This document shows, in pieces, positions 7,661 through 34,055 of a stretch of 34,894 nt of DNA. How positions within the stretch are numbered: position 1 is the first letter of the stretch; each line of letters begins with the position of its first letter. The notes under the pieces were generated by a model that was given only the letters and a program-made list of their open reading frames with translations, was not told where the DNA came from and did no database searches. Made by a program: the position numbers and the translations under genes. Source of the DNA: an uncultured Chloroflexota bacterium (lineage in GTDB: Bacteria; Chloroflexota; Anaerolineae; Aggregatilineales; Phototrophicaceae). The DNA lies in NCBI GenBank assembly GCA_903877335.1, contig CAIRDJ010000059.1, forward strand, positions 1 through 34,894, read 5' to 3'.

Positions 7661-7693
7661 TGTCATCCCACACTAGGGATGGATGGAGTCTTT

Positions 7694-11549: not shown

Positions 11550-11552
11550 ACC

Positions 11553-13826: not shown

Positions 13827-14861
13827 ATGACAACTGCTAACCCACTTCTAGCCGCGCTAAAGACTGCTACTTTGAACTTTAGGTTGATCGTAATTGTACT
13901 GCTCTTCCTCATTTTGGCAGGTTGCCGCTCTGTCGCGCCGGGGTGCCCTCCAGATTGTAAAGGCATCCGCCTTCGACAAGGCAACTTTTCGGGGATAAAT
14001 TTGTCTAATTCAGATTTGCGCGATGCTGAAATCCGCGGTTCTAATTTGGCAAACGCTAACTTTCGTGGTGCAGACCTCTCTGGTGCAAACCTGTCTGAGT
14101 CTTCATTAGTGGGTGCTGACTTCTCAAATGCCATCTTGGACGGCGCGATTTTTAGTGAGTCAAACTTGAGTGGCGCCATTTTAGATAACTCGCGCATGAT
14201 TGGAACGAACCTCAGTCGCGCTCAATTAATTGGGGTGGATTTTCGCACCGCTGAGCTTGCTGCCATAATCATGAACGAGTCCGTGTTGATCGGCGCGAAT
14301 CTTTCTGATCGCTCGCTTCAGGGTGTTCAGTTGATTGGGGCAGATTTACGCGGTGCCAGTCTCATCAATACGGATTTATCGGGAGCCACGTTAGGGATTA
14401 TCGCTGGGCGCGGAACCACTTTGCGAGGTGCGAACTTGTCAGGTGCGATTTTGGAGGGAGCCACGCTCAACGGGGTTGACCTTTCTGGGACCAACATGAG
14501 CGGCGTAAATTTGCGGGGGGCGGTCATTGGGCGACGCTCACGAGCCTTGGGCGCAAACCTTGAAGGAGCAAACTTAGAAAACGCTTTGTTGGAAGAAGTG
14601 AGTTTTGCGGGGGCGGATATGAAAGGAGTGAGTGTGGCTAACAGTTTGATCCAACGCATCCGTCTCAACGGCGCCCAACTGCACGATGCATCCTTTGAGG
14701 GTGCGTCGTTTGTGTTGACGCGCCAAGATGAGGCAGAGGAACGCCCAAGCTCCATCTTTGATTTGAATGGTGCCATCTACAATGAAAATACGGTGTTCCC
14801 AGCAGGCTACGAAGCACCGAGCAGTGCTCTGTTAGACGAACAGACTAGTAGCAACCCTTAA
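13827..14861 (+). CDS. Pentapeptide-repeat lipoprotein
   Basis: ATG immediately follows the upstream TAG (translational coupling). Signal peptide with lipobox 'ILAGC'. Nearly the whole mature protein is pentapeptide repeats ('SNLANANFRGADLSGANLSESSLVGADFSNAILDGAIF...'). Confidence 0.8.
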   Translation: MTTANPLLAALKTATLNFRLIVIVLLFLILAGCRSVAPGCPPDCKGIRLRQGNFSGINLSNSDLRDAEIRGSNLANANFRGADLSGANLSESSLVGADFSNAILDGAIFSESNLSGAILDNSRMIGTNLSRAQLIGVDFRTAELAAIIMNESVLIGANLSDRSLQGVQLIGADLRGASLINTDLSGATLGIIAGRGTTLRGANLSGAILEGATLNGVDLSGTNMSGVNLRGAVIGRRSRALGANLEGANLENALLEEVSFAGADMKGVSVANSLIQRIRLNGAQLHDASFEGASFVLTRQDEAEERPSSIFDLNGAIYNENTVFPAGYEAPSSALLDEQTSSNP

Positions 14862-19059: not shown

Positions 19060-20616
19060 TTAGGGTTGCTTCCAAAGCAGGTTTTGGAACACACCGATTA
19101 GGTCGGGAAACAGGTTCATCACTTCTTTGCGCTTTGCCATGTATGTGTCAACATGCAAGGGGATGATGAGGGCACCCTCCTCTGATAAAATACGCTGAAT
19201 TTCAGCATAGAGTGGTTTACGCTCTTCTGGATTTTCCGTTGCTCGAATCTGATCGATTAATGCGTCGAATTCGGGATTCGTCCATCCTGAAACATTTAAG
19301 AAAGCATCCGACTTGAACATCAAACTTAAATTTATTTCAGGCTCCCCAACATGAGTCCACCATTGTACCGCAAACGGAACTTGCCCCCACTGTTCGTAGA
19401 AATAGCTATTGGCAGGGACACGCTCAATTTCTACGCGAATGCCAGCGGGTAAAAGCGATTCCTGTAAAACGACGGCAGCATTCACCAAGCCAGGAAAAAG
19501 ATCTGCTACGGTGAGCGTGATGTCGAGTCCGTCAGGGTAGCCTGCCTCAGCTAGGAGTGCCTTTGCGCCTTCAATATCTTGCGCAGGGGCTTCAATGCCA
19601 TCCCAATAGGGATTTGCTGGGCTGATGGGGTGGTCGTTGCCCAAATATCCATCTCCCAAGGCAAATACCTGACGAATTGCTTCACGGTTGGTTGCCAGCT
19701 TGAGTGCTTTGCGCACGCGCACATCATCAAAGGGAGGTTCAAAGGTTAGCATTTCAAAGCCAAACCAAAAACCCATATCAGATTGCAGAATGTCTATATT
19801 GGGATTGGCTTGCAAAATGGGGATGCTGGTTGGGCTTACTTGATAAAGAATATCCACATCTCCGCTGGCTAAAGCCGCTACTTGACTGGTGGGGTCAGGG
19901 ATGATGCGATACTGCATGGTATCAAGATAGGGCAAAGGAGCGTTCCAGTAGGCTTCATTGCGGACATACGTTACGGATTCGTCTGGGATATTCTCTCCTA
20001 AAATGAAGGGTCCTGTTCCAATTGGGGTGGTGGCGAGTTCCTCATCAGACCGCCCATTCGGAATGATGGAAGCGGCGGGATCCCACATCGTTTCCAGCAA
20101 CGTATGGTGAGGTTGCGACAAACGAAACTCAACTGTGTGCTCATCTAGGGCGACTACTTCGTTGACAGACGTGAATAAACTCCCAATGATGCTCCCTAAA
20201 TTCACGTCCATCAGACGGTTATAGGTGTAAACCACATCAGCAGAAGTGAAGTCCTGTCCGTTGTGGAACTTGACACCCTTGCGAAGATTAAATGTCCATG
20301 TTAGTTCATCCTCGCTAATTGACCAAGATTCCGCCAGGCGCGGTATAATCGGGAAATGCGGTTGAGTGACATCAAGCGTGACGAGTGTGTCTCCCATCAG
20401 AATCCACCCAAGTGCATCCGCCAAAGTGAGCCATGTGGCGGGGTCAAAAGTCGTGACACCATCCACCATAGCGATGCGAATCTCCCCCCCAAAGATCGGC
20501 TCAAGGGTGGACTGGGCGCGGGTAACACGAGGGGATAAACGATCAAAGAACATCATTGCCGATGTTCCTGCCATCAATTGCACGAATCTGCGACGCGATA
20601 ATTCATGATTGACCAT
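19060..20616 (-). CDS. ABC transporter substrate-binding protein, family 5 (peptide/nickel/opine type), Tat-exported
   Basis: Twin-arginine signal 'SRRRFVQLMAGTSAMMF'. Length and composition typical of DppA/OppA/NikA-type SBPs. Divergent from the P-ATPase-DppBCDF operon. Confidence 0.8.
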   Translation of the reverse strand: MVNHELSRRRFVQLMAGTSAMMFFDRLSPRVTRAQSTLEPIFGGEIRIAMVDGVTTFDPATWLTLADALGWILMGDTLVTLDVTQPHFPIIPRLAESWSISEDELTWTFNLRKGVKFHNGQDFTSADVVYTYNRLMDVNLGSIIGSLFTSVNEVVALDEHTVEFRLSQPHHTLLETMWDPAASIIPNGRSDEELATTPIGTGPFILGENIPDESVTYVRNEAYWNAPLPYLDTMQYRIIPDPTSQVAALASGDVDILYQVSPTSIPILQANPNIDILQSDMGFWFGFEMLTFEPPFDDVRVRKALKLATNREAIRQVFALGDGYLGNDHPISPANPYWDGIEAPAQDIEGAKALLAEAGYPDGLDITLTVADLFPGLVNAAVVLQESLLPAGIRVEIERVPANSYFYEQWGQVPFAVQWWTHVGEPEINLSLMFKSDAFLNVSGWTNPEFDALIDQIRATENPEERKPLYAEIQRILSEEGALIIPLHVDTYMAKRKEVMNLFPDLIGVFQNLLWKQP

Positions 20617-20828: not shown

Positions 20829-22991
20829 ATGCCCATAATGTTGCCAGTTGTTTTTCTAGGCGGGGCGATCGCAGCTGGTGTAAGTTACCTGCAAGAAAAA
20901 GACCTCCCTGTTCCTTTCGTCAAACCGAGAACCAAGTTGATCGTCTATTTGGGGAATGAGTTGCGACCTGAAGCTGACCCAGAAGATCGCTTTGTTGAAC
21001 GGGTTAACCTGAGGTATCAGAAGTTTTTTCAAGAGCGTATTGATCCGCTATTGGGGGCAAGTCGTCAACATGACCTCGCTGAGCTTGCGCCGACAACACA
21101 ACTGCTGGAGCGTCCGGATGGGTACATTAACCGTCGGTTGGGATATTCGGTCATCGCAATATTTTTTGCGATTGCGGGTAGTCTTTCGCTTCCCTCTTTC
21201 TTGGTGGTGAGCGTGGCAGTCGGGTTATACGCTAACAACGACTTGTACTTTCAGGGGACGCGGAATTTACTGAAGGGTAAACCGGATCACTTGACCACGG
21301 CAATGCTGGCGATGGTGACATCTTGGATCGGTGGTTTTTGGATTGCGAACTCACTGGCTTCATTGTTGTATTACACGGGTGAGAAATTAGCTGCCGTCAG
21401 TGAAAATCGCGCTCGTCAGCGCATGATTGATGTATTCGGGCAGATTCCCCGCACTGCGCGAGTGATTTTGGAGGGCGAAGAAATTGAAATTTCTGTTTCT
21501 GCCTTAAAGGAGGGGGATGTTGTGATAGTCCGTGCCGGGCAAATCATCCCTGTTGACGGCGAAATCACTCAAGGGATGGCTTCTATCGATCAGCACATGT
21601 TGACTGGTGAATCTCAACCTGTTGAAAAAGAAGTGGGAGCTGGGGTTTTTGCCTCTACACTTTTGTTATCTGGCGAAATCCTCATCACCATCACCCGTAC
21701 AGGTACGGAAACAGTGGCATCTCAGATTGTTGAGGTGTTGAACAATACGGCTAACTTCCAGTTTGAAATGGTGAATCGCGGTAAGCGGATCGCCAATGCG
21801 TGGGCACTTCCAACCATTCTGATTGGTTTAGCGGGTGGGTTAGTTGGTGGGATTCGCTCATTGGTGGCGTTATGGAATGTCGATGTTGGCTCTCAAATCA
21901 TGATTACCGCCCCCATCAGCTTATTGAATTTCCTCGATAAAGCCTCTGCTAATGGTATATTGGTCAAGGATGGTCGCTCGCTTGAACTCTTAAAACTGGT
22001 GGATACGGTTGTATTCGACAAGACTGGTACGTTAACCGAGGAACGCCCAACCGTCGCAGCGGTACATTCATTCTCGGAGTTTAGTTCAGACGCCATCCTA
22101 CAAATTGCTGCCGCTGCTGAAAGCCACCAATCCCATCCGATTGCGCATGCCATCCTCCATGCTACAAAAGAACGAGGGTTGGAATTTCCTGCTGTGGAAA
22201 AAACAGATGTTGAGCTGGGTTACGGGTTGCGTGTGATGCTTGAAGGGCACGAAATTCTGGTGGGTAGCCAACGCTTCATGGCGATGAGTGATGTAGAATT
22301 GCCCATTGACCTGGAGGACTTGCTCACTCAAACAGCGGAGCTGGGGCATTCGATGGTGTTTGTTGCGGTGGACGCGCAATTGATAGGGGCGATTGAGTTG
22401 CAACCGACCGTCCGCCCAGAGGCATACACGGTAATTGCCAACCTACAGGAGCGGGGTATCAAAACCGTGATTATCTCTGGCGACCAAGAAGCACCCACGC
22501 GCAAGTTAGCCCACCAACTGGGGATTGATGAATATTTTGCCAACACCCTGCCGGAGAATAAAGCACAATTGGTGGAGATGCTGCAATCTCAAGGGCGAAA
22601 AGTATGCTTTGTGGGGGACGGCATCAATGACTCCATCGCATTGCGCAAAGCGGATGTATCGGTCTCCATTCATGGCGCAACGACTATAGCGGTGGACACC
22701 GCGCAAATTGTCTTAATGAGTAAGAACCTAGAGAAGTTGCCGTACCTATTTGAGTTGTCCCACACGTTCAACCGAAATGCCAGAGTTGGAACGTTGATTG
22801 CTACGGTGCCTGCCTTCATTCTGATTGGTGGGGTATTCATCTTAAATTTGGGAGTTTATGCTTCAATTGCATTTTGGAACATTGGCTTAGTAGCAGGAAT
22901 GTTGGTGGCGATGTCCCCTAGCCTCTCCAATACAGAACAGGATAAGCAACAGGCACTCCCACAAAATAGCCGTGTGGCGTTGGGTGAATAA
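20829..22991 (+). CDS. P-type ATPase, P1B-like, lacking the canonical CPC motif and an N-terminal metal-binding domain
   Basis: Phosphorylation motif 'DKTGTLT', hinge 'GDGINDSIAL', and P1B-type 'HP' motif ('SHQSHPIAHAI'). At the position of the TM6 CPC motif the sequence reads 'ITAPISLLNF'. No CxxC HMA domain. Confidence 0.8.
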   Translation: MPIMLPVVFLGGAIAAGVSYLQEKDLPVPFVKPRTKLIVYLGNELRPEADPEDRFVERVNLRYQKFFQERIDPLLGASRQHDLAELAPTTQLLERPDGYINRRLGYSVIAIFFAIAGSLSLPSFLVVSVAVGLYANNDLYFQGTRNLLKGKPDHLTTAMLAMVTSWIGGFWIANSLASLLYYTGEKLAAVSENRARQRMIDVFGQIPRTARVILEGEEIEISVSALKEGDVVIVRAGQIIPVDGEITQGMASIDQHMLTGESQPVEKEVGAGVFASTLLLSGEILITITRTGTETVASQIVEVLNNTANFQFEMVNRGKRIANAWALPTILIGLAGGLVGGIRSLVALWNVDVGSQIMITAPISLLNFLDKASANGILVKDGRSLELLKLVDTVVFDKTGTLTEERPTVAAVHSFSEFSSDAILQIAAAAESHQSHPIAHAILHATKERGLEFPAVEKTDVELGYGLRVMLEGHEILVGSQRFMAMSDVELPIDLEDLLTQTAELGHSMVFVAVDAQLIGAIELQPTVRPEAYTVIANLQERGIKTVIISGDQEAPTRKLAHQLGIDEYFANTLPENKAQLVEMLQSQGRKVCFVGDGINDSIALRKADVSVSIHGATTIAVDTAQIVLMSKNLEKLPYLFELSHTFNRNARVGTLIATVPAFILIGGVFILNLGVYASIAFWNIGLVAGMLVAMSPSLSNTEQDKQQALPQNSRVALGE

Positions 22992-23036: not shown

Positions 23037-23981
23037 ATGGTGATTTTTTTGCTAAGGCGCCTGGCATTCATGCTGGCAACCTTGTTGTTCATCTCTCTGC
23101 TCATCTTTGTGGTGACAGAGGTTTTGCCGGGAGATGTGGCTACCGCGATACTGGGTAGACGCGCCACAGTCGAGAATTTAGCGGCGTTACGAGAGCAACT
23201 GGGGTTGGAACGTCCTGCGACCACACGTTATGTTGATTGGTTAACCGGAATGTTGCGAGGAGACTGGGGAGACTCGCTCACCCTTAAAGTCCCCATTTAT
23301 CCACTTGTCACCGAACGACTGGGCAACTCGCTCATTTTGGCAACTCTTGCTTTCGTGATAGGGGTGCCACTGGGATTGTTCTTGGGGATTATCGCAGGGT
23401 TAATGCAGGATAGCTGGGTCGATCATCTCATTTCTGGAAGTTTACTGGCTTTGATTTCTATTCCAGAGTTCGTGTTGGCTACAACAGGAATTATGATCTT
23501 CGCCTATCAATTTCAGATTTTACCCGCCACCAGCACAATCGAAGCCAACATGAGTTGGCAAACCGTCTTGCTCGCCCTGATATTGCCCACCACGACACTG
23601 GTCTTGGGGATGTTGGCACATGTGGGGCGAATGATGCGCACGAGCATTGCCGAAGTAATGCACAGTCAATACATCCGCACCGCCACCCTAAAGGGGTTGA
23701 AGATGCGTGTTGTCGTTTTGCGGCATGCATTGCCCAATGCGCTTCTTCCAACCATCAGCGTGATTGCTTTGGAAGTGGGGTATCTTTTGGGGGGGATTGT
23801 GGTCATTGAGAATGTATTTGCTTATCCGGGGTTGGGGCGTTTGATGTTGCGCGGGGTGACAAACCAAGATTTGCCCCTCTTGCAAGCCGTTACCTTAATA
23901 ATGACTTTTGCGTTCATGCTCGCTAATTTTCTGGCAGATATGGTCTACATGATGTTGAATCCACGCATTCGCTATGAGTAA
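23037..23981 (+). CDS. ABC transporter permease, DppB/OppB/NikB family
   Basis: N-terminus 'MVIFLLRRLAFMLATLLFISLLIFVVTEVLPGD' is typical of DppB. 6 TM helices. EAA-like region. Confidence 0.85.
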   Translation: MVIFLLRRLAFMLATLLFISLLIFVVTEVLPGDVATAILGRRATVENLAALREQLGLERPATTRYVDWLTGMLRGDWGDSLTLKVPIYPLVTERLGNSLILATLAFVIGVPLGLFLGIIAGLMQDSWVDHLISGSLLALISIPEFVLATTGIMIFAYQFQILPATSTIEANMSWQTVLLALILPTTTLVLGMLAHVGRMMRTSIAEVMHSQYIRTATLKGLKMRVVVLRHALPNALLPTISVIALEVGYLLGGIVVIENVFAYPGLGRLMLRGVTNQDLPLLQAVTLIMTFAFMLANFLADMVYMMLNPRIRYE

Positions 23982-24912
23982 GGATAAACCGATGCAAGAA
24001 CCTACGCCAACTTTTGCGGTCAAGGGCGTATCCACACAACCGGACAACATCACTCAAAATCGCCCAACTCAACTGTCATTTCTGCTTCGACGAATGCTCA
24101 AGTTGCGTCAACATCCAGCAGGATTATTGGCGTTGGTGTTTATTGTGTTGTACCTCTTTTTGGCGATCTTTGGGGAACAAATCGCCCCGTATCCCTACAC
24201 GCAACAGCACTATACCGATACCCTGAAGCCACCTTCGATTACCTACTGGTTTGGTACAGATCAGTTCGGAAGAGATGTGCTCAGTCGGGTCATTGTTGGC
24301 TCGCGCGATGTGTTGCTATTGGCTTTCACTGCGATATCTTTTAGCGGGCTACTGGGTTTGTTCATTGGGCTCCTGGCGGGGTACTATGGCGGACTGCTGG
24401 ACGAACTGCTGATGCGCCTGATGGACATCATCATGTCGTTCCCCGCACTTTTGTTAGCGTTGTTGATCTTGAGTGTGTACGGCTCAAATTTCTTTAATTT
24501 AATTCTGACGTTAGGGATAGTCTTTGCGCCGTTCATTGCCCGCGTGGTACGCAGTGCTGTACTCGATGTGCGTTCGCTAGAGTACATTGATGCTGCCCGC
24601 TTGCGTGGGGAGGGGGATTTCTACATCATGACCCAAGAGATTTTGCCTAATATTATTCCGGTGGTCATTGTCGAGTTTTCGTTGAACTTCAGCTATACCA
24701 TCCTAGCAGGGGCATCACTGGGCTTTCTGGGGTTGGGTGTGCAACCCCCATCGCCTGATTGGGGCTTACAGGTGAATGAGGGGAGTCTGTACGCACTGAT
24801 CGCCCCGTGGGTGGTGATCTTCCCGTCAATTGCCATCTCCATTTTGGTGCTGTCAATTAACGTGTTTGCGGATATTTTGGGTCGCATTTTGGTAGGCGAG
24901 GGAGAGTCATGA
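23974..24912 (+). CDS. ABC transporter permease, DppC/OppC/NikC family
   Basis: Overlaps the upstream gene by 8 nt. Typical DppC topology. 'YIDAARLRGEGDFYIMTQEILPN' EAA region. Confidence 0.85.
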   Translation: MSKDKPMQEPTPTFAVKGVSTQPDNITQNRPTQLSFLLRRMLKLRQHPAGLLALVFIVLYLFLAIFGEQIAPYPYTQQHYTDTLKPPSITYWFGTDQFGRDVLSRVIVGSRDVLLLAFTAISFSGLLGLFIGLLAGYYGGLLDELLMRLMDIIMSFPALLLALLILSVYGSNFFNLILTLGIVFAPFIARVVRSAVLDVRSLEYIDAARLRGEGDFYIMTQEILPNIIPVVIVEFSLNFSYTILAGASLGFLGLGVQPPSPDWGLQVNEGSLYALIAPWVVIFPSIAISILVLSINVFADILGRILVGEGES

Positions 24913-26966
24913 CACCGACAACATCAAGTACCACCATTCCTGTTTTAGAGCTGGAAGATGTGCACATTGCCTATCAATCTGTGGGGAAATGGCATGACGT
25001 TGTTCACGGGGTATCGTTTGCCATACAACGTGGGCAAACGGTTGGGTTAGTGGGAGAATCCGGTTGTGGTAAAACTTCAACTGCCTATGCGGTGATGAAT
25101 TATCTCGGCAAGAACGGAAAGCAAAGCGGAGGGTCTATCCGTTTTAATGGGCGTGACATGCAGTCTTTTTCTCGCCAAGAGATACGCGATATTCGCGGCA
25201 AAAAGATGAGCATGGTCTATCAAAACCCTGCTTCGTCCCTCAATCCTGCCCTGCGAATTGGGCAACAAATGATCGAGGTTCTAGCTCGCCATGAGCATCT
25301 GTCTTCGCTGCAAGCCACCGAACGCGCCCTAGAGATGTTTCGTAAGGTGCGTTTACGTGACCCAAAAGCAATCATGCAACGCTATCCCTATCAGTTAAGT
25401 GGGGGGCAACAACAGCGTGTGGTGATCTCGATGGCGTTGGTAACAAACCCTGATCTGTTGATTATGGATGAGCCAACAACGGGTTTGGATGTCACCACAG
25501 AATCTGCCGTGTTGCGCTTGATAGCGGAACTCAAGCAAGAGTTTGATACCGCCATACTTTACATCAGTCATGATTTGCGTGTGGTGGCAAAAGTGTGTGA
25601 TTGGGTGGGAGTGATGTATGCTGGGCAGTTGGTTGAATGGGGGACAGCAGAGGCTGTTTTCAATCGCCCTCAAAATCCGTATACCGCCGACTTACTGGCT
25701 TGCACTCCTAGCTTGACGCAACATTATCAATCTAGCCGCTTGCGTACCATAGAAGGACGTGTCCCTGCACCCCATGCCCGTCAAGTGGGTTGTATCTATG
25801 CTTCGCGTTGCCGTTTCGCCCAGGCGGATTGTACCGAGACAACACCAATGATCCGCGAGTTATCATCTATGCCTTCTCATCAAGTGCGCTGTTGGCATTC
25901 CGAATCCATCCGAGAGCAACTTTCCCCAACTTTCCCCATCCAAGCCCCCCGCCCATCCGATAAAGCACTTTCTGCCGCGCCATCCAACGCAACTTTCTTA
26001 GAGGTTAAGGGGTTGAAGCAATACTATCGTGCCTCCTCCTCTATCGTGGATCGCGTGTTAGGTGGTGAGGCTCATTCGTTTAGGGCGGTGGATGATCTTT
26101 CGCTGGTTATTCAACAGGGGGAAGTGTTTGCAGTCGTCGGGGAAAGTGGGTCCGGAAAAACCACAACAGGGCGTGCAATCGTAGGCTTATTGAAACCAAC
26201 AGATGGCACCATCACTCTTCATGAAAAGTCGTTGTCCCCTCTTGTACAACACCGTTCTGCCAGGGAACGCCAAGCGATTCAAATGGTGTTCCAAAATCCT
26301 GAGTCCACCCTAAACCCTAACCACACCATCGGGCACATCTTGCATAGAACCTTGCTTCGTTTTGGTATCACTGGTCGGGGCGAGCGTCAGGAGAAAGTTG
26401 AACGCTTGTTGGAGTCTGTGCGGTTAGACCCAAGTTACGCTTATCGTTATCCAGGCCAGTTGAGCGGAGGCGAAAAACAGCGGGTGGCGATCGCACGTGC
26501 TTTCGCGGGTGATCCTCAGTTGGTTGTTTGTGATGAGGCGGTTTCGGCGTTGGATGTGTCAGTTCAAGCCACCATCTTGAATCTATTGATTGACTTAAAA
26601 GAGCAAACCCAGTGCTCTTACTTGTTCATCTCCCATGATCTCAGCGTTGTCCATTACATCTCTGACCACATTGCGGTGATGTATCACGGGCAAGTAATGG
26701 AAAGTGGCACAGTCGATCAAGTATTTGAAGCACCCCATCACCCGTATACCGCTATGCTGTTGAGTGCGATTGATTCTACCTATCATGCAGGTTCTTCCAC
26801 TGCGGATGCTTCACAAATGGAATCACAAGCCGACCAAGAGGGGTGTCCATTTCATGCTCGCTGCCCGCGCAAAATTAAAGACCTGTGTGAGCAAGTCGCT
26901 CCGCCCATTCAGTCCCCCACAGAGGGGCACCTCATCCGTTGCCATATCCCACTAAACGAACTGTAA
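24909..26966 (+). CDS. Fused tandem ATP-binding protein (DppD-DppF type) of the peptide/nickel ABC importer
   Basis: Two complete NBDs. The first has 'GESGCGKTS' / 'LSGGQQQRV' / 'LIMDEPTTGLD'; the second has 'GESGSGKTT' / 'LSGGEKQRV' / 'VVCDEAVSALD'. Each is followed by a Cys-containing oligopeptide-transporter C-terminal segment. The ATG overlaps the DppC stop (ATGA). Confidence 0.85.
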   Translation: MTPTTSSTTIPVLELEDVHIAYQSVGKWHDVVHGVSFAIQRGQTVGLVGESGCGKTSTAYAVMNYLGKNGKQSGGSIRFNGRDMQSFSRQEIRDIRGKKMSMVYQNPASSLNPALRIGQQMIEVLARHEHLSSLQATERALEMFRKVRLRDPKAIMQRYPYQLSGGQQQRVVISMALVTNPDLLIMDEPTTGLDVTTESAVLRLIAELKQEFDTAILYISHDLRVVAKVCDWVGVMYAGQLVEWGTAEAVFNRPQNPYTADLLACTPSLTQHYQSSRLRTIEGRVPAPHARQVGCIYASRCRFAQADCTETTPMIRELSSMPSHQVRCWHSESIREQLSPTFPIQAPRPSDKALSAAPSNATFLEVKGLKQYYRASSSIVDRVLGGEAHSFRAVDDLSLVIQQGEVFAVVGESGSGKTTTGRAIVGLLKPTDGTITLHEKSLSPLVQHRSARERQAIQMVFQNPESTLNPNHTIGHILHRTLLRFGITGRGERQEKVERLLESVRLDPSYAYRYPGQLSGGEKQRVAIARAFAGDPQLVVCDEAVSALDVSVQATILNLLIDLKEQTQCSYLFISHDLSVVHYISDHIAVMYHGQVMESGTVDQVFEAPHHPYTAMLLSAIDSTYHAGSSTADASQMESQADQEGCPFHARCPRKIKDLCEQVAPPIQSPTEGHLIRCHIPLNEL

Positions 26967-27031
26967 GACACTTTTGGGGAGCGCATAACGTGAGACATTC
27001 GCTCTCTTTGTATCACAATCATAGTAACTTA

Positions 27032-28201
27032 ATGAGTGGATTCGTAATCTTTAATATGAAGAGTATCTTGTATCAAATTCAACGTCGGACTGCCTTTGAT
27101 GAAGGGCATACCTTGTTCATGCGCGCTGAAGCAAGTATGAGTAATTTTGAACTGGATAGTGGGCAGATCGTAGAACCTGATATATTCTTGAAGGAGGGGG
27201 GATGGAGTTTATATGGGGCGCAAGATGGTCGCTTCATGTTGGTACAGTTGCCTCTGTCAGAGGATATCACACAAGTTCCTTTCATGACCCCTCACCAAAA
27301 CCAGCATGCCCAGCAATTATTAACTATTCCTTTTGAGGTTGCGCATACCCTCGTAGAGAACATTCCCGCACCTCAAAAGATCATCTTCATTCACATGATG
27401 GGGCGGACTGGCTCTACGCTGTTGAATAAGATTTTGAGCAATGTGGATGGGGTATGTAGTTTTTCTGAACCGGCTACCTTCCGCTTGGTGAGCAAATTGT
27501 GTGGGGGAGGGGTTGTTGACTCGGTGGGATGTCTCAACATTTTACGAACAGCGTTGCGGTTGCAATTCGGCGCACAGAATTATCAAGGCGACTTTCACAC
27601 GCTGGGGATTAAGTTGCGACATCGTGCAATGGATGATCTATCAATTTACCATTCGGCTTTTCCCACTGCTAAATACATTTTCATGTATCGTGAAGCGGTT
27701 GGTTGGATGCGCTCCTTTTATCGGTTGCTGATGGCATTTGGTGTGGGTAGGGACTTGGAGATAGCTGATGGTGCGCTTCCAGCAGATGCACGCCCCACAC
27801 AACAACTCCAAATCATCTGGAAACAAATCAGTGATAAACCGACCGATTACTTCAGTACGCATCCCGATTACGGCTATCTCGAGGAACTCTTGGCGGTGGT
27901 GTGGTCAAACTTGATGAACCAATACCTGCGGGGTGTGGAGCAGGGAATCCCATTATTAGCTGTGAATTTCAAAGATTTTACGCAAGATCGGCACGCAACC
28001 TTACAAGAGATTTTTTCGTTCGTCGGGCTAGACGCACAGCAAATTGACAGAGTGATGCAAGTCTATGAGGCAGACTCACAAGCTGGCACGGAAGTGGGAA
28101 GAGAGGGCTACAAGCACCCTATAACTGATGCCCAAGTCAAAAGATTCCTTGCTTACTTGAGCCTTCAACAGGGTTGCAATATGCCGGACTACACCTTATA
28201 G
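27032..28201 (+). CDS. Sulfotransferase-family-like protein, paralog A (tentative)
   Basis: P-loop-like 5'-PSB-type motif 'MMGRTGSTLLNKIL' (compare sulfotransferase 'RSGSTLL') and a downstream 'MYREAVGWMRSF' segment resembling the 3'-PB region. Start chosen at 27032 ('MSGFVIFNMKSILYQIQRR') by parallel with paralog B ('MNGFGFPNMMSILYQIQRR'); the upstream extension overlapping the ABC ATPase gene is rejected. Confidence 0.45.
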   Translation: MSGFVIFNMKSILYQIQRRTAFDEGHTLFMRAEASMSNFELDSGQIVEPDIFLKEGGWSLYGAQDGRFMLVQLPLSEDITQVPFMTPHQNQHAQQLLTIPFEVAHTLVENIPAPQKIIFIHMMGRTGSTLLNKILSNVDGVCSFSEPATFRLVSKLCGGGVVDSVGCLNILRTALRLQFGAQNYQGDFHTLGIKLRHRAMDDLSIYHSAFPTAKYIFMYREAVGWMRSFYRLLMAFGVGRDLEIADGALPADARPTQQLQIIWKQISDKPTDYFSTHPDYGYLEELLAVVWSNLMNQYLRGVEQGIPLLAVNFKDFTQDRHATLQEIFSFVGLDAQQIDRVMQVYEADSQAGTEVGREGYKHPITDAQVKRFLAYLSLQQGCNMPDYTL

Positions 28202-28401
28202 CATTTGGGTATCATAAGGGATGGCTACTGTTGCTGGATGAGAGGCTACGATTTTTGAGATATAGGGCACGGAGTGGAGATCGTGGTTGGTAATGTGTCT
28301 GCACGCGCCGTCGAAGTGTCAGAAACCTTAGGGAAGCGGTTAACTCTAGCGAATAGGACTTGTTTTATTACAATCACATTTATGACAGGATAAGTAATTA
28401 G

Positions 28402-29604
28402 ATGAATGGATTCGGATTTCCTAACATGATGAGCATCTTGTATCAAATTCAACGTCGGATTGCGTTCGATGAAGGGCAACCCCAGTTTATGCGCTCTGAT
28501 GCGAGTTTAGATAAGTTTGAACTGGATGGCGGACAGATAGTAGAACCTGACATTTTCCTGAAGCAGGGTGGATGGAGTCTGTATGGAGTACAAGATGGTT
28601 GCTTCATGTTTGTTCAGTTGCCCCTGTCGGAGGATATCACGCAAGTTCCCTTCATCACGCTTCATCAAAACCAGCATGCCCAGCAATTATTAACTATTCC
28701 TTTTGAAGTTGCACAACACTTGGCAGAGAACATTCCCGCGCCTGAAAAGATCATCTTGATTTATATGATGGGGCGGACGGGTTCCACGCTGTTGAATAAG
28801 ATTTTGAGCAATGTGGATGGGGTGTGCAGTTTTTCTGAACCGGCTACCTTCCGCTTTGTGAGTAAATTATGTGGAAGGTTGTCTGTTGACTCGCACGAGT
28901 GTATCCATCTTCTACAGACGGCGTTGCGGTTGCAATTCGGCGCACAGAATTATCGTGGCAACTTTCACACGCTAGGGATTAAGTTGCGACCTCGTGCAAT
29001 GGATGATCTTTCGGTTTACCATTTAGCATTTCCATCCGCTAAGTACCTTTTCATGTATCGTGAGGCGGTTGGTTGGATGCGCTCCTTCTATCGGTTGCTG
29101 ATTGCAAACGGTGTGGGCAAGGACTTGGAGATGACTGATACGGTGCTGCCAGCGGATGCGCACCCCACGCAACGTCTTCAATTTATCTGGAGACGCATAG
29201 GGGATAAGCCAACCGATTACTTCAGCACGCATCCCGATTTCGGCTATCTTGAGGAACTCTTGGCGGTGGTGTGGTCAAACTTGATGAACCAATACCTGCG
29301 GGGTGTGGAGCAAGGAATCCCATTTTTAGCTGTGAATTTCAAAGATATTACACAAAATCGGTACGCGACCTTACAAGAGATTTTCTCGTTCGTCGGGTTA
29401 GACATAGAGCAAATTGACAGAGTGATGCAAGTTTATGAAGCAGACTCACAGTCTGGCACGGATGTAGGCAGAGAGGGCTACAAGCACCCTATCACTGATG
29501 CCCAAGTCGAAAGATTCCTTGCTTACTTGAGCCTTCAAAAGGGTTGCAATATTCCCGACTACAATTTGTCCCATATCGGTGAAAGAGGGGATGACCCATC
29601 ATGA
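28402..29604 (+). CDS. Sulfotransferase-family-like protein, paralog B (tentative)
   Basis: About 80% identical to paralog A along its length, including 'MMGRTGSTLLNKIL'. 'AGGA' SD upstream of the ATG at 28402. The upstream flank ('ACAATCA...') is also duplicated. Confidence 0.45.
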   Translation: MNGFGFPNMMSILYQIQRRIAFDEGQPQFMRSDASLDKFELDGGQIVEPDIFLKQGGWSLYGVQDGCFMFVQLPLSEDITQVPFITLHQNQHAQQLLTIPFEVAQHLAENIPAPEKIILIYMMGRTGSTLLNKILSNVDGVCSFSEPATFRFVSKLCGRLSVDSHECIHLLQTALRLQFGAQNYRGNFHTLGIKLRPRAMDDLSVYHLAFPSAKYLFMYREAVGWMRSFYRLLIANGVGKDLEMTDTVLPADAHPTQRLQFIWRRIGDKPTDYFSTHPDFGYLEELLAVVWSNLMNQYLRGVEQGIPFLAVNFKDITQNRYATLQEIFSFVGLDIEQIDRVMQVYEADSQSGTDVGREGYKHPITDAQVERFLAYLSLQKGCNIPDYNLSHIGERGDDPS

Positions 29605-30911
29605 TGAACGATTTTGACCAAAGCATTGGACGTAATATCATCCTTGGATTGATTGCTTCGGTGGTAGCACTGGGACTGATAGGATTGCTGATTTGGGTTG
29701 TAAATCCTTTTCCTAGCCGTGACATTAAAATCTCCACTGGACCAGAGGCAACCCTATATTATCAATATGCCCAAAAGTATGCTGAAGCATTTGCAAAACA
29801 AGAAATAAACTTAGAGATCGTGGTCGGTAATGGGTCTACACAAACCATCGAACGTTTGTTAAACGATGAAGTTGACTTTGGATTTGTTCAAGGTGGAACA
29901 TTAAAGGACGTCGACCTATCTAAACTGGTCAGCATCGGGAGCTTGTACTATGAACCCATTTGGCTTTTTTATCGGGATGGCGTGGAAATCCAACAGTTGA
30001 ATGACCTAAAAGGTAAGCGGGTTGCCGCTGGTATAGAGGGAACTGGGATTCGCCTGATCGCCGAGCAGGTGTTGGGTCTCAACAATGTCACCCCCGATAC
30101 CGCTACCTTTGTAGACTCAAGTGTACCTGATGCGGCAGAGGCATTGAAGCATGGGGAGGTTGATGCTGCGTTTTTCGTGATGTCCCCTACCTCATCGGTA
30201 GCGTATGATCTACTCACTGCAGACGGGATTCAATTATTGAATATTGACCGTGCAGAAGCATACTCACGTAAATTGAATTTCCTCAACAAGGTCGTTTTAT
30301 CAGAAGGTATTCTCAATTTTGAAACCAACGTCCCTGACCGTGATTACGAATTGATTGCCACCACAACAGTTTTGATGGCGCATCAAAACACGCTTGAGGA
30401 ACACATATTTTTAGTTTTGCCACACCTGATTGCGTTTCATAATATGCGTGGAGTTTTTGAAGCAGATGGGGAATTTCCATCAGGCTTGTATGTGGAAGCA
30501 AAGCTACATCCCACCGCTGAACGATATTATGCAAACGGTGCTACGTTTGTAACACGCTTTTTGCCACCTGTTTGGGCTGCCATCGCTGACCGACTTATTA
30601 TCTTGCTTATACCGATTATTACCCTTATGGTACCCATTGTTCAAACTTTGCCATCTATTTACTATCGGTTTGGAATCCGCTATAAAATTGTTAATTGGTA
30701 TAGCCAACTACACCAATTAGACACCGATACATCTTTGCTGTCTGATGAAGAACTGAAGCAACGCATCGAACAAATCGCACAATTGGAATATCAAGCACGC
30801 TTCACTCGCTCTGTTCCAAAAGACTATTTGGATGAGCTATACGACACCATCGGCGATATTGTAGCTACTAGAGAATATTTAGAGCAAAAATATGCTGAGC
30901 GCAACAACTAG
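29601..30911 (+). CDS. Membrane-anchored TAXI/PhnD-like periplasmic solute-binding-domain protein (tentative)
   Basis: ATGATG start overlaps the stop of paralog B. N-terminal TM anchor. 'ISTGPEATLYYQYAQKYAE...VVGNGSTQTIERLLNDEVDFGFVQGG' follows the TAXI-family pattern (TGG-x-GG-YY ... GGS-x-N ... E-x-D-x-x-x-VQ). A second hydrophobic segment 'RLIILLIPIITLMVPIV' is followed by a C-terminal tail of about 90 aa. Confidence 0.45.
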   Translation: MMNDFDQSIGRNIILGLIASVVALGLIGLLIWVVNPFPSRDIKISTGPEATLYYQYAQKYAEAFAKQEINLEIVVGNGSTQTIERLLNDEVDFGFVQGGTLKDVDLSKLVSIGSLYYEPIWLFYRDGVEIQQLNDLKGKRVAAGIEGTGIRLIAEQVLGLNNVTPDTATFVDSSVPDAAEALKHGEVDAAFFVMSPTSSVAYDLLTADGIQLLNIDRAEAYSRKLNFLNKVVLSEGILNFETNVPDRDYELIATTTVLMAHQNTLEEHIFLVLPHLIAFHNMRGVFEADGEFPSGLYVEAKLHPTAERYYANGATFVTRFLPPVWAAIADRLIILLIPIITLMVPIVQTLPSIYYRFGIRYKIVNWYSQLHQLDTDTSLLSDEELKQRIEQIAQLEYQARFTRSVPKDYLDELYDTIGDIVATREYLEQKYAERNN

Positions 30912-30961: not shown

Positions 30962-31657
30962 TTATGTGTTGATTACATCCTCAAGCACCTGGTCGAACGC
31001 TTTGCGATCGGTTCTAGCTGCCTTGCGAATAGAAGCGTCAATGTATTCACGGCGCTCCTTTTCAGTGCCGAGCAGGATTTCAGGGGTGGGAGGCTCGATT
31101 AGTTTGAGGTCAGCTAGCTTATTAAGCAGTTGCATCCCAACTTGGTCGTTTTCCTTGCGAGCGAGGCTGTTCAACGTATCCATGTAGGTTCGGAACTGGT
31201 TGAGTTCCGGTTGAACCTGTGTCGCCTTCCAGCAGGCTTTACAGTACATCACCACAACAGCTTTCACGGGCGATTCCAACTCCGGATTCTGGGATAAGTC
31301 ATGGTCGTTCAACCAGCGCAACTCAATATTGAGGTCATTACAGAAGAGTGCCAGTTGATAGGCTAGGGCGCGGCTTCCTTCGGGCGACAAAGATAGTAAC
31401 CATAATTGTAACTCTGGCTCATCATTTAGCCCCACTTTTACCCACTCTACAAAATCTTGTCCTAGCATTTCTGTCGTTTTGGAGTTTAAACCCGACTCTG
31501 TAATGGAACGCACATTATCAAGCACCTGGTCTGTCACGGTGCTAATTTGATCTCGAACAGCGTTAAGGCGCGGGGCCACTCGTTCGCTTAACTGAATCTG
31601 TCTTTCTGCGTAAACAGCTGCGACGATCATCAGAATCAAGATAATTAAAAATGGCAT
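30962..31657 (-). CDS. Hypothetical membrane-anchored protein
   Basis: 231-aa ORF with N-terminal TM helix 'MPFLIILILMIVAAVYA'. Rest is predicted soluble and helical. No motif recognised. Confidence 0.4.
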   Translation of the reverse strand: MPFLIILILMIVAAVYAERQIQLSERVAPRLNAVRDQISTVTDQVLDNVRSITESGLNSKTTEMLGQDFVEWVKVGLNDEPELQLWLLSLSPEGSRALAYQLALFCNDLNIELRWLNDHDLSQNPELESPVKAVVVMYCKACWKATQVQPELNQFRTYMDTLNSLARKENDQVGMQLLNKLADLKLIEPPTPEILLGTEKERREYIDASIRKAARTDRKAFDQVLEDVINT

Positions 31658-32591: not shown

Positions 32592-32862
32592 GGGATTTGT
32601 TCACTCAATCAATGAGGTTGGCGGTTATATTGACCAGTAGCTGACATAGATCCAGTCTATGAGCCAAGCACATGTTTTTAACATAGGGTCACTCCTGAAA
32701 AATGATCTAATAAAACTGACACAATAGCAATGATGATCTGGCGTTTTTTTAGGCTCACTCTAAATCATGCCGTCCTACAAGCACTGCAACAAATACTGTT
32801 ACAAATCAGCTGGATGGGTTACACTCGCCTTGAGGTTGTTTTTGTCGGGGAATTTTCGCAAG

Positions 32863-33243
32863 ATGAAACAGGCTATGCTTTCGGCTTGGTATGTAGGGAG
32901 TGGGGGCTTTTTAGGTGCCATTTCTCGTTATGCTGTTACGATGCTTTTTACACCGCTCGGCAACAAGGAGCTTGCGACTTTGTTGGTAAACATCGTGGGG
33001 GCGGTTCTTCTGGGCGGGATAATGGGAATGGCGCAAACCAAGGCAGTTTCTCCAAGGATCGTTTTATTCTTTGCAACAGGCTATTTAGGAGCATTGACCA
33101 CTTTTTCTACGTTCGTGCTGGAAGTGATGATGCTTTGGAATGCACGACAGTTTTGGAAGTTGGCGTGGTACGGTGTGGGAACGTTAGTCTTGGGGTTGCT
33201 GGGTGTCATGTTGGGCAAGCGATTAGGGGACATGTTGGGGTAA
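32863..33243 (+). CDS. crcB: Fluoride ion channel CrcB/Fluc
   Basis: 126 aa, 4 TM. Signature 'GGFLGAISRY' (GG-x-x-GA-x-x-RY). ATG at 32863; the ORF track's longer N-terminal extension is not supported. Confidence 0.8.
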   Translation: MKQAMLSAWYVGSGGFLGAISRYAVTMLFTPLGNKELATLLVNIVGAVLLGGIMGMAQTKAVSPRIVLFFATGYLGALTTFSTFVLEVMMLWNARQFWKLAWYGVGTLVLGLLGVMLGKRLGDMLG

Positions 33244-33254
33244 AAGAGGACACT

Positions 33255-34055
33255 ATGCCAGATTGGATAACGGTCATCCTACTTGGATTTGTGGAAGGTA
33301 TCACGGAATTCTTGCCCGTGTCGTCAACGGGGCACTTGATCGTTGTGTCAGATTGGCTTGGCTTGAATCCAGCTTTACAGGGAACATTTGAGATTGTCAT
33401 TCAGTTTGGTGCAGTTCTTGCGGTGATAGCTTACTTTTGGCGAGATTTATATCAACAGATACGCATAACACCCACTGATGCACGGGCGCAACGTTTCTGG
33501 TTGGCGGTCATGGTAGCGTTCATTCCGGCAGCGGTGATCGGTTTGCTGTTCGAGGATACCATTGATCGCCTGTTGCAATCCAATCAAGTGGTTGCCACCG
33601 CTTTGATTTTGGGAGGCTTCTTGTTTTTGATAATTGAGTGGGCGGGTTTTAGCTCTCGTGCAAATTTAGACGATGAATTACTAGACATCAACTTGTTACA
33701 GGCGTTCGCTATAGGGTTGATACAATCCCTCGCCTTAATCCCAGGCACCTCTCGCTCAGGTATGTCAATCATTGGTGGGTTAGTCGTTGGGCTAAACCGT
33801 CGTGTTGCCACACAGTTCTCATTTTACCTCTCTATTCCCACATTGGGGGTTGCCACGCTTTACAAGGGGGTCACTGATTTCTCAAGCCTACCATTAGACA
33901 ATATTTTACTGGTTGTTTTAGGTACGGTTATCTCTGCAGTGGTTGCCTGGTGGTCAATTGGGTGGCTCTTAAAATTTGTCTCCACCAATACTTTCACTCC
34001 ATTTGGTTACTATCGTATTGTGGTGGGGATTCTGATCTTGTTTGTGGTGGCTTAA
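33255..34055 (+). CDS. uppP: Undecaprenyl-diphosphatase (BacA/UppP)
   Basis: Starts 'MPDWITVILLGFVEGITEFLPVSSTGHL', the hallmark UppP N-terminal motif. Also carries the 'PGTSRSG' motif. SD 'AAGAGGA' sits 5 nt upstream of the ATG at 33255. The 441-aa ORF-track entry is this gene plus a spurious upstream extension. Confidence 0.85.
   Translation: MPDWITVILLGFVEGITEFLPVSSTGHLIVVSDWLGLNPALQGTFEIVIQFGAVLAVIAYFWRDLYQQIRITPTDARAQRFWLAVMVAFIPAAVIGLLFEDTIDRLLQSNQVVATALILGGFLFLIIEWAGFSSRANLDDELLDINLLQAFAIGLIQSLALIPGTSRSGMSIIGGLVVGLNRRVATQFSFYLSIPTLGVATLYKGVTDFSSLPLDNILLVVLGTVISAVVAWWSIGWLLKFVSTNTFTPFGYYRIVVGILILFVVA

What the first reader, a model, noticed from the sequence alone, without database searches (positions are those of the whole stretch)
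27032..30911. Tandem duplicated sulfotransferase-like genes translationally coupled to a membrane-anchored TAXI-like binding protein, appended to the Dpp operon
Two roughly 400-aa paralogs, about 80% identical at protein level and highly similar at DNA level (including about 40 bp of upstream flank), carry a P-loop-like 'GRTGSTLL' motif matching the 5'-PSB (PAPS-binding) loop of Stf0/Sulfotransfer_3-type enzymes. The second overlaps (ATGATG) a protein with a TAXI/PhnD-type solute-binding fold, an N-terminal membrane anchor, and a second TM plus cytoplasmic tail. All three are co-directional with, and immediately downstream of, the P-ATPase-DppBCDF genes. This could be a module for uptake and sulfation or sulfo-metabolite handling of a peptide-like substrate, but that is speculative.
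Basis: partly seen in the sequence, partly recalled or inferred. Interest (0 to 1): 0.6.

Follow-up and report, generated by a model that had tools for sequence, protein, structure and literature searches.

The report
Duplicated sulfotransferases beside orphan TAXI protein
Two duplicated genes for sulfate-adding enzymes sit next to a membrane-anchored binding protein in a Chloroflexota genome, but relatives keep the enzyme while losing the binding protein, so this looks like an ordinary neighbourhood of poorly studied genes, not a new uptake-and-sulfation machine.

Summary
ST-A (27032/27056..28201) and ST-B (28402/28426..29604) are 82% identical paralogs. ST-B overlaps by ATGA a 436-aa TAXI-type binding protein (29601..30911) with an N-terminal TM, a second TM and a roughly 88-aa tail.
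- Sulfotransfer_3 scores above the Pfam cutoff.
- The PAPS and catalytic residues are invariant.
- TIGR02122 (TAXI) scores above its cutoff.

The "uptake plus sulfation module" reading is not supported:
- The duplication and the ATGA overlap occur only in this species.
- In relatives the sulfotransferase is single and intact. The TAXI gene is frameshifted in three contigs of one population and internally deleted in a Phototrophicaceae MAG.
- One relative has P-ATPase→ST→TAXI with no Dpp genes between.
- Elsewhere neither family sits next to the other. The TAXI-TM subfamily is a stand-alone orphan with no TRAP permease nearby.

New detail: the 200-nt spacer between the paralogs is a decayed TAXI 5' fragment plus a second copy of the leader. 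The tandem duplication therefore ran from the end of dppDF into TAXI. Both copies are under purifying selection (dN/dS about 0.2). The acceptor substrate is unknown. Interest is modest.

The parts
19060..20616 (-). Context: SBP_bac_5 (Opp/Dpp/Nik-type) solute-binding protein, divergent from the operon
   Evidence: Pfam SBP_bac_5 3e-91. Best NCBIfam hits are nickel/GsiB/DppA models, all far below cutoff.
20829..22991 (+). Context: atypical P1B-like P-type ATPase, first gene of the co-directional block
   Evidence: TIGR01525 412 bits, above cutoff 346. DKTGT is present, but 'VGS' aligns to the CPC of Legionella CopA, and Pfam reports no metal-binding domain.
23037..26966 (+). Context: Opp/Dpp/Nik-family ABC permeases (23037-23981, 23974-24912) and fused double ATPase (24909-26966)
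   Evidence: BPD_transp_1, OppC_N, 2x ABC_tran + oligo_HPY. Specificity unresolved: permeases are below all equivalog cutoffs, and the ATPase passes several conflicting ones.
26963..27055 (+). Leader copy 1 (from the dppDF stop to the ST-A start)
   Evidence: Aligns with 28316-28425 and with the leader of the single ST in L009. No Rfam match.
27056..28201 (+). ST-A, PAPS-type sulfotransferase paralog (381 aa; 389 aa if started at 27032)
   Evidence: Sulfotransfer_3 34.6 bits vs cutoff 27. 82% identical to ST-B. Keeps all 7 family-invariant residues. dN/dS vs ST-B is 0.21.
28202..28315 (+). Decayed relic of the 5' part of a duplicated TAXI gene
   Evidence: 28277-28315 matches 29814-29852 inside the TAXI gene: 32/39 nt, E 1e-5 against the whole window. 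In frame it reads EIVVGNVSARAVE vs EIVVGNGSTQTIE.
28316..28425 (+). Leader copy 2 (includes a copy of the last bases of dppDF)
   Evidence: Alignment A6: GAAGTGTCAGAAACC... vs GAACTGTAAGACAC... at the dppDF stop.
28426..29604 (+). ST-B, PAPS-type sulfotransferase paralog (392 aa; 400 aa if started at 28402) with an 11-aa C-terminal extension reaching the TAXI start
29601..30911 (+). Doubly membrane-anchored orphan TAXI-type solute-binding protein (TM1 ~12-35, SBP domain ~40-312, TM2 ~322-348, helical tail 349-436)
   Evidence: TIGR02122 87.8 bits vs cutoff 84.35. NMT1_3 1e-23. PDB TAXI hits at 5e-8. Hydropathy. The full-length architecture is conserved in 36 aligned homologues drawn from the 120 listed.

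Best explanation
The region encodes two paralogous, soluble cytoplasmic sulfotransferases that use PAPS as donor, followed by an orphan TAXI-type binding protein anchored in the membrane at both ends.

The sulfotransferases. They belong to a large uncharacterised family (about 370-385 aa). Its members combine a family-specific N-terminal alpha/beta domain of roughly 100 aa with a catalytic core like that of tyrosylprotein sulfotransferases. The core has a 5'-PSB loop (GRTGST), a glutamate base (SEP), a lysine, and a 3'-PB Arg-x7-Ser motif. The inferred chemistry is an in-line sulfuryl transfer from PAPS to a hydroxyl (or amine) of an unidentified acceptor. That acceptor is most likely a small molecule or peptide-like metabolite.

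The duplication. The pair arose by tandem duplication of a roughly 1.5-kb segment. The segment ran from the last bases of the ABC ATPase gene, through the ST, to about 250 nt into the TAXI gene. The truncated TAXI copy then decayed into the present 200-nt spacer. Both ST copies stayed under purifying selection, so both are probably active. Their differences fall mostly at positions that vary across the family.

The TAXI protein. It belongs to a widespread, uncharacterised subfamily (N-terminal TM, TAXI domain outside the cell, second TM, conserved cytoplasmic helical tail) that is not encoded beside TRAP permeases.

Shown: folds, motifs, duplication anatomy, selection, and the comparative gene-order data. 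Inferred: enzymatic activity, PAPS use, topology, and co-transcription with the upstream genes. The three genes are neighbours by descent in this Phototrophicaceae-like lineage. They are not a demonstrably obligate functional unit.
For: Sulfotransferase identity:
- Pfam PF13469 above the gathering score for both copies.
- An exhaustive HMMER search finds 1039 cluster representatives (493 at E<=1e-10), and most of the 150 best hits listed span nearly the whole profile.
- Seven residues are invariant in 86 sequences: R117, G119, T121, E138, K186, R212, S220.
- A PDB profile search puts TPST1/2 and tick TPST first (2e-8 to 1e-5). R, E and K align to the PRSGTT Arg, the second Glu of GEE and the NKD Lys, and R-x7-S aligns to the TPST R-x7-S. 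Arg78, Glu99 and Lys158 are the catalytic residues of human TPST2 (PMC10951654).

Duplication anatomy.

Selection: dN/dS A-B is 0.21, and codon-position differences are 42/30/97. Both copies keep the conserved residues.

TAXI. The subfamily architecture is conserved. Five loci sampled for subfamily members (four distinct genomic contexts) show neither a DctQ/DctM-type permease nor an ST within 6-8 kb.

Loose linkage:
- Single ST with frameshifted TAXI in L004, L005 and L006.
- Single ST with TAXI internally deleted in L009.
- P-ATPase followed directly by ST and TAXI in L003.
Against: - No biochemical data exist. The acceptor is unknown, and no PAPS-synthesis genes lie in the 35-kb window.
- ST-TAXI adjacency survives in every intact relative seen, even where the Dpp genes are absent (L003). 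TAXI was also under purifying selection for most of the divergence (pN 0.116 vs pS 0.67). A real functional tie that is dispensable in some habitats therefore cannot be excluded.
- The comparative sample is small: five independent loci from about four lineages.
- The AF2 model was not docked with PAPS.
Confidence: 0.7

Rival explanations
1. The ABC (Dpp-like) importer and/or the TAXI protein capture a peptide-like substrate, which the two sulfotransferases then sulfate. The whole block would be one uptake-and-sulfation operon.
For: The genes are co-directional with short gaps, and no terminator-like site lies between dppDF and ST-A on the + strand. There is an ATGA overlap between ST-B and TAXI. 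The order ABC-ST-TAXI is kept in L002, L004 and L005.
Against: - L003 has P-ATPase followed directly by ST, with no ABC genes between.
- TAXI is frameshifted or deleted in relatives with an intact ST.
- The coupling overlap is not conserved.
- Distant ST relatives sit in unrelated contexts: NRPS plus ABC exporters, fucose/FGE-sulfatase genes, and an AMP-ligase with a Sulfotransfer_2 protein.
- TAXI-TM relatives are stand-alone genes.
- The ABC system is not assignable to peptides; for the binding protein and permeases the nickel/Opp models score best.
Confidence: 0.1
2. ST and TAXI-TM form a two-part signalling or regulatory pair. The external TAXI domain senses a ligand, and its conserved cytoplasmic tail recruits or regulates the sulfotransferase.
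For: ST-TAXI adjacency persists after the rearrangement that separates L003 from the others. The tail is a conserved module of about 120 aa with invariant residues and no known domain, so it probably has a partner. The TAXI-TM genes are orphans with no permease nearby.
Against: TAXI-TM homologues at 30-44% identity never have an ST neighbour. The ST is retained without TAXI in two lineages. There is no evidence of any interaction.
Confidence: 0.08
3. The paralogs are bacterial peptide/protein tyrosine sulfotransferases (analogous to TPST or RaxST) acting on a peptide.
For: TPSTs are the closest solved structures and profile hits, and the catalytic Arg/Glu/Lys align. An Opp/Dpp-family transporter is adjacent.
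Against: - Identity to TPSTs is only 14-18%, with just 208 of 392 residues superposed.
- The N-terminal domain has no TPST counterpart.
- No precursor-peptide gene was identified nearby.
- The nearest outgroup sits with an AMP-binding enzyme and a second sulfotransferase, which looks more like small-molecule tailoring.
Confidence: 0.1
4. One of the two copies (ST-A) is a redundant duplicate on its way to becoming a pseudogene.
For: ST-A carries F62L at a 95%-conserved position. It lies upstream of a decayed gene fragment. Every relative outside the window's own species has a single ST copy.
Against: The reading frame is intact. dN/dS is 0.15-0.21, third-position changes dominate, and all invariant catalytic residues are kept. 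dS of 0.45 shows long survival.
Confidence: 0.05

Closest known systems
Tyrosylprotein sulfotransferases TPST1/TPST2 and tick TPST (PDB 3ap1/3ap3, 5wri, 8w5z)
   Different: Only 14-18% identity. The window proteins are soluble bacterial proteins with an extra conserved N-terminal domain of about 100 aa. They lack the Golgi type-II anchor, and nothing points to peptide-Tyr specificity.
Mycobacterial Stf1/Stf9 and the PKS-embedded CurM/OLS sulfotransferase domains (PDB 2zq5, 2z6v, 4gbm, 4gox)
TAXI-family TRAP solute-binding proteins (TIGR02122; e.g. VcGluP 8s4j, TTHA1157 1us4, PDB 9oz4)
   Same: The TAXI/NMT1_3 domain passes curated cutoffs. It is extracytoplasmic and tethered by an N-terminal TM, as reported for many TAXI SBPs.
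   Different: There is no adjacent fused Q-M permease. The protein carries an extra C-terminal TM and a conserved cytoplasmic tail of about 88 aa. I found this architecture neither in the two TAXI papers I opened (PMC11574862, PMC12344293) nor among the titles and abstracts returned by two literature searches.
TAXI-GltS system of Bordetella pertussis (BP0403; PMC12344293)
   Same: A precedent for a non-canonical, elongated, membrane-tethered TAXI protein that is not paired with a TRAP permease.
   Different: BP0403 is a lipoprotein with N-terminal globular and helical domains, and it is translationally coupled to the GltS symporter. Here the extension is C-terminal (TM plus tail), and no secondary transporter gene is adjacent.

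Membership tests
PAPS-dependent sulfotransferase superfamily (Pfam Sulfotransfer_3, PF13469) | Profile match above the curated threshold | tested here: met
   34.6 and 35.8 bits vs gathering score 27. Ten further family members scanned all hit sulfotransferase profiles, mostly PF13469.
PAPS-dependent sulfotransferase superfamily (Pfam Sulfotransfer_3, PF13469) | Sulfotransferase alpha/beta fold | tested here: met
PAPS-dependent sulfotransferase superfamily (Pfam Sulfotransfer_3, PF13469) | 5'-PSB strand-loop-helix motif and 3'-PB Arg...Ser motif | tested here: met
   GRTGST (R117, G119, T121) and R212-x7-S220 are invariant in 86 sequences and align to the TPST motifs. The motif definitions come from PMC10951654.
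PAPS-dependent sulfotransferase superfamily (Pfam Sulfotransfer_3, PF13469) | Catalytic base next to the acceptor (Glu in TPST/heparan-type enzymes) | tested here: met
   Invariant E138 aligns to the second Glu of GEE (TPST2 Glu99), and K186 aligns to Lys158. This rests on sequence alignment only.
PAPS-dependent sulfotransferase superfamily (Pfam Sulfotransfer_3, PF13469) | Sulfuryl transfer from PAPS to an acceptor | not testable with these tools
   Needs an enzyme assay. No PAPS-synthesis genes are in the window, and the rest of the genome was not available.
Tyrosylprotein sulfotransferase (TPST/RaxST-type) | Specificity for peptide tyrosine; TPST dimer and peptide-binding groove | not testable with these tools
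   Only core-fold similarity is seen: 14-18% identity and 208 residues aligned. The extra N-terminal domain has no TPST counterpart. The proteins are not filed as members of this family.
TAXI family TRAP solute-binding subunit (TIGR02122 / PF16868) | Profile match above the curated threshold | tested here: met
   TIGR02122 87.8 bits vs 84.35. PF16868 84.6 bits vs 27. PDB TAXI proteins hit at 5e-8.
TAXI family TRAP solute-binding subunit (TIGR02122 / PF16868) | Extracytoplasmic location (signal peptide, lipobox or TM anchor) | tested here: met
   An N-terminal hydrophobic segment (about residues 12-35) lies immediately before the SBP domain. Topology itself is inferred.
TAXI family TRAP solute-binding subunit (TIGR02122 / PF16868) | Encoded with a TRAP membrane component (fused DctQ-DctM type) | tested here: not met
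   No DctQ/DctM-type gene is among the ORFs of the 35-kb window scanned with Pfam. None lies within 6-8 kb of the subfamily members sampled at five other loci, which represent four distinct contexts. The protein therefore has a TAXI domain, but membership of a TRAP transporter is not established.
TAXI family TRAP solute-binding subunit (TIGR02122 / PF16868) | Binds a small ligand and delivers it to a transporter | not testable with these tools
   Needs ligand screening of the soluble domain.

The most novel reading that the evidence does not exclude
The doubly anchored TAXI proteins (N-terminal TM, TAXI domain, second TM, conserved cytoplasmic tail beginning with a YRWRVRSRIYRWY-like motif) may be a widespread, undescribed class of SBP-based transmembrane receptors or adaptors. 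They would work without a TRAP permease. In this Chloroflexota lineage the tail would communicate ligand binding to the neighbouring cytoplasmic sulfotransferases.
Probability: 0.08. Interest if true: 0.65.

Novelty: new member of a known kind. Interest (0 to 1): 0.3.

Why it matters
Bacterial sulfotransferases are poorly charted. This work delimits a family of about 1000 clusters with a TPST-like core and a private N-terminal domain, none of whose members I found characterised. If their acceptors were found, they could reveal new sulfated metabolites. The orphan TAXI-TM architecture is common and unexplained, and would be worth a ligand and partner screen. The specific locus, however, offers no evidence of a new integrated system. 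Its main value is as a clean example of tandem duplication with a decayed gene relic, and of a gene neighbourhood that looks operonic but is evolutionarily loose.

Tried and rejected
- AF2 with only the 4 close sequences gave pLDDT 46 and was discarded. The 86-sequence alignment fixed this.
- A phmmer search of a single ST against PDB found nothing. The profile search was needed.
With 5 sequences, the genome collection gave one locus (L009). The metagenome collection gave only the same species plus two weak fragments.
- The afdb50 fold library was unavailable.
- A regulatory RNA in the conserved leader was rejected. There is no Rfam hit at gathering score or at E<=1, and the leader is absent in L004.
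- A defence-system reading was rejected, with no PADLOC hits.
- A known domain in the TAXI tail was rejected. Only insignificant Pfam hits appeared, plus a coiled-coil-type PDB match (DC-SIGNR neck, 2e-5) that I regard as compositional.
- The literature searches found no description of the TAXI-TM architecture or of this ST family. Roden et al. 2023, on membrane-anchored TAXI SBPs, is not held.
- Whether the duplication predates the split from the L009 lineage stays unresolved. ST-B is closer to L009 (dS 0.36) than to ST-A (dS 0.45). That fits either an older duplication with later loss or unequal rates.


Full report
**What is there.** The ORF list shows a co-directional block on the + strand:
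- a P-type ATPase (20829-22991);
- two ABC permeases (23037-23981, 23974-24912);
- a fused double ABC ATPase (24909-26966);
- two roughly 390-aa paralogs;
- a 436-aa protein (29601-30911).

An SBP_bac_5 binding protein is transcribed divergently (19060-20616). The paralogs are 82% identical in protein and 86% identical in DNA over 27023-28193 vs 28393-29563. The stop of the second paralog overlaps the start of the 436-aa gene as ATGA. The 436-aa protein has two strongly hydrophobic segments (about residues 12-35 and 322-348) and a polar helical tail of about 88 aa. Orthologues begin at the second in-frame ATG, and one relative has GAG in place of the upstream ATG. The real starts are therefore probably 27056 and 28426.

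**Sulfotransferase assignment.** The evidence is consistent at every level.
- Both paralogs exceed the Pfam gathering score for Sulfotransfer_3 (34.6 and 35.8 vs 27 bits). No NCBIfam model matches.
- The word-indexed search found only four relatives. The exhaustive HMMER search with a four-sequence profile found 1039 cluster representatives, 493 of them at E<=1e-10, and most of the 150 best hits listed are 365-390 aa long and match nearly the whole profile. This is a sizeable family, and every source name I saw reads 'hypothetical protein' or a generic sulfotransferase label.
- In an 86-sequence alignment seven residues are invariant: R117, G119, T121 (the GRTGST loop), E138 (SEP), K186, R212 and S220.
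- A profile search of PDB sequences ranks tyrosylprotein sulfotransferases first (2e-8 to 1e-5), followed by CurM ST, Stf1 and OLS ST.
- The printed alignments put R117 on the Arg of PRSGTT, E138 on the second Glu of GEE, K186 on the Lys of NKD, and R212-x7-S220 on the R-x7-S of the 3'-phosphate-binding element.
- With the deep alignment AlphaFold2 gives pLDDT 93.2 and pTM 0.92; with four sequences it gave only 46.

About 100 N-terminal residues form a conserved family-specific alpha/beta domain outside the region aligned to TPSTs.

**TAXI assignment.** The 436-aa protein passes TIGR02122 TRAP_TAXI (87.8 vs 84.35 bits) and NMT1_3 (1.2e-23), and it matches solved TAXI proteins (5e-8). The search returned 275 hits. 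The 120 listed are nearly all of similar length (419-483 aa) and match 74-100% of the query. In 36 aligned homologues the C-terminal module is conserved, with invariant residues. It comprises an RYLPFWAA-type interface segment, the TM, a basic YRWRVRSRIYRWY-like juxtamembrane helix, and a helical region. This module has no Pfam or structural assignment. Nothing like a DctQ/DctM-type TRAP permease was found among the window ORFs scanned. None lies within 6-8 kb of the subfamily members at the five other loci sampled, and those genes sit among unrelated housekeeping genes. The protein has a TAXI domain, but it belongs to an orphan, doubly anchored architectural variant. I found this variant neither in the two TAXI papers I opened nor among the search listings I examined.

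**Anatomy of the duplication.** The leader upstream of ST-B (28316-28425) aligns with the leader upstream of ST-A, including a copy of the last bases of dppDF. Just before it, 28277-28315 matches 29814-29852 inside the TAXI gene (32/39 nt, E 1e-5). In frame this reads EIVVGNVSARAVE against EIVVGNGSTQTIE. Similarity between the two copies also continues past the ST-A stop codon. The simplest history is a tandem duplication of the segment running from the dppDF 3' end through the ST to about 250 nt into TAXI. The truncated TAXI copy then decayed and partly deleted, leaving the 200-nt spacer.

Both ST copies are under purifying selection: dN/dS is 0.21, dS is 0.45, and differences by codon position are 42/30/97. 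Both keep every invariant residue. ST-A has F62L at a 95%-conserved site. The A/B differences lie at positions that are less conserved across the family (mean top-residue frequency 0.30 vs 0.44).

**Comparative genomics.** The organism is a Chloroflexota of or near the Phototrophicaceae, judged from L009, a Phototrophicaceae MAG at 80-88% nucleotide identity.
- L001 and L019 are the same species as the window, at 99% identity.
- In a more distant population (L002, L004, L005, L006; ST about 70% aa identity) the order is SBP / P-ATPase-ABC-single ST-TAXI, with a 35-nt gap between ST and TAXI.
- In L004, L005 and L006 the TAXI gene is split by a frameshift. L006 carries a second frameshift.
- In L003 the P-ATPase is followed directly by the single ST and TAXI, with a 32-nt gap and no ABC genes between.
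- In L009 the single ST follows dppDF, and TAXI has suffered an internal deletion of about 1.2 kb. Only about 50 nt of its 5' end and 25 nt of its 3' end remain.
- TAXI was nevertheless under purifying selection for most of the divergence between the window and L004 (pN 0.116, pS 0.67). It is as constrained as the neighbouring genes, so its losses are recent.
- The ATGA overlap exists only because ST-B has an 11-aa C-terminal extension. Where ST-A and L009 have a TAG stop, ST-B has TCC.

**Distant relatives of the ST.** They sit in varied contexts:
- beside NRPS genes, an AMP-ligase, a phosphopantetheinyl transferase and ABC exporters (L010);
- beside fucose-metabolism genes and an FGE-sulfatase-domain protein (L011);
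- among unrelated genes (L013);
- for the closest outgroup (40% identity), overlapping an AMP-binding enzyme and following a Sulfotransfer_2 protein (L018).

One member is fused to an APH-type kinase domain. None is near a TAXI gene.

**Interpretation.** The best-supported account is two active, paralogous, cytoplasmic PAPS-type sulfotransferases of an uncharacterised family, followed by an orphan TAXI-TM protein. They were inherited as neighbours in this lineage and are possibly co-transcribed with the upstream genes. No + strand terminator-like site lies between dppDF and ST-A in a crude scan.

The proposal that they form an uptake-plus-sulfation module rests only on adjacency in one lineage. 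It is weakened by the independent loss of TAXI with retention of the ST, by the non-conserved coupling, by the absence of the ABC genes in L003, and by the lack of any co-occurrence elsewhere. It cannot be fully excluded, because ST-TAXI adjacency is kept wherever both are intact. The TPST resemblance concerns the catalytic core, not acceptor specificity. Heparan-sulfate, PKS and mycobacterial enzymes score nearly as well. The contexts of the nearest outgroup and of L010 hint at small-molecule or acyl/peptidyl tailoring, but the acceptor here is unknown.

**Verdict.** The family assignments are confirmed. The functional module is not supported. The ABC system is Opp/Dpp/Nik-family with unresolved specificity, so 'Dpp' and 'peptide-like substrate' are not established. 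I rate the novelty as new members of known kinds, with an architecturally unusual but widespread TAXI variant as the most interesting loose end. Interest is modest.

Noticed in passing
window 20829-22991 (+): The P1B-like ATPase passes TIGR01525 and has DKTGT. However, 'VGS' aligns to the CPC transmembrane metal site of Legionella CopA, and Pfam reports no N-terminal metal-binding domain. It is the one gene that stays next to the ST in all relatives, including L003, which has no ABC genes in between.
   Followed up: partly
window 28202-28315: The spacer between the paralogs carries a decayed fragment of the TAXI gene (28277-28315 matches 29814-29852). This shows the duplication unit reached into TAXI.
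   Followed up: yes
L004 9504-10789; L005 9504-10789; L006 772-2052; L009 1540-1670: The TAXI orthologue is frameshifted in three contigs from three samples of one population, twice in L006. In the Phototrophicaceae MAG it is reduced to short terminal remnants. The adjacent sulfotransferase is intact in all of them.
   Followed up: yes
L018 175-3569: In the closest outgroup of the ST clade (40% identity) the ST start overlaps by ATGA the end of an AMP-binding (adenylate-forming) enzyme. That enzyme is preceded by a Sulfotransfer_2 protein, which suggests a small tailoring cluster.
   Followed up: partly
protein P0172 (640 aa): A member of the ST family is fused to a C-terminal APH/fructosamine-kinase-type phosphotransferase domain.
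   Followed up: no
window 32730-34055 (+): The 441-aa ORF in the mechanical list is probably not one gene. CrcB (32767-33243, a different frame) and BacA/UppP (about 33243-34055) are the real genes, and relatives call them separately (126 aa and 266 aa in L004).
   Followed up: partly
window 8928-14861 (+): An 873-aa protein with a C-terminal ABC ATPase domain is followed by two large pentapeptide-repeat proteins (757 and 344 aa) with back-to-back coordinates.
   Followed up: no
window 30962-31657 (-): A 231-aa protein with one N-terminal TM and no family match lies convergent to TAXI. It is syntenic in all relatives and is the most conserved gene of the neighbourhood (85% aa identity to L004).
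   Followed up: no
window 7679-8812 (+): A 377-aa ORF with no Pfam match at 1e-5 sits next to a PLP-dependent decarboxylase-like gene (6272-7660).
   Followed up: no
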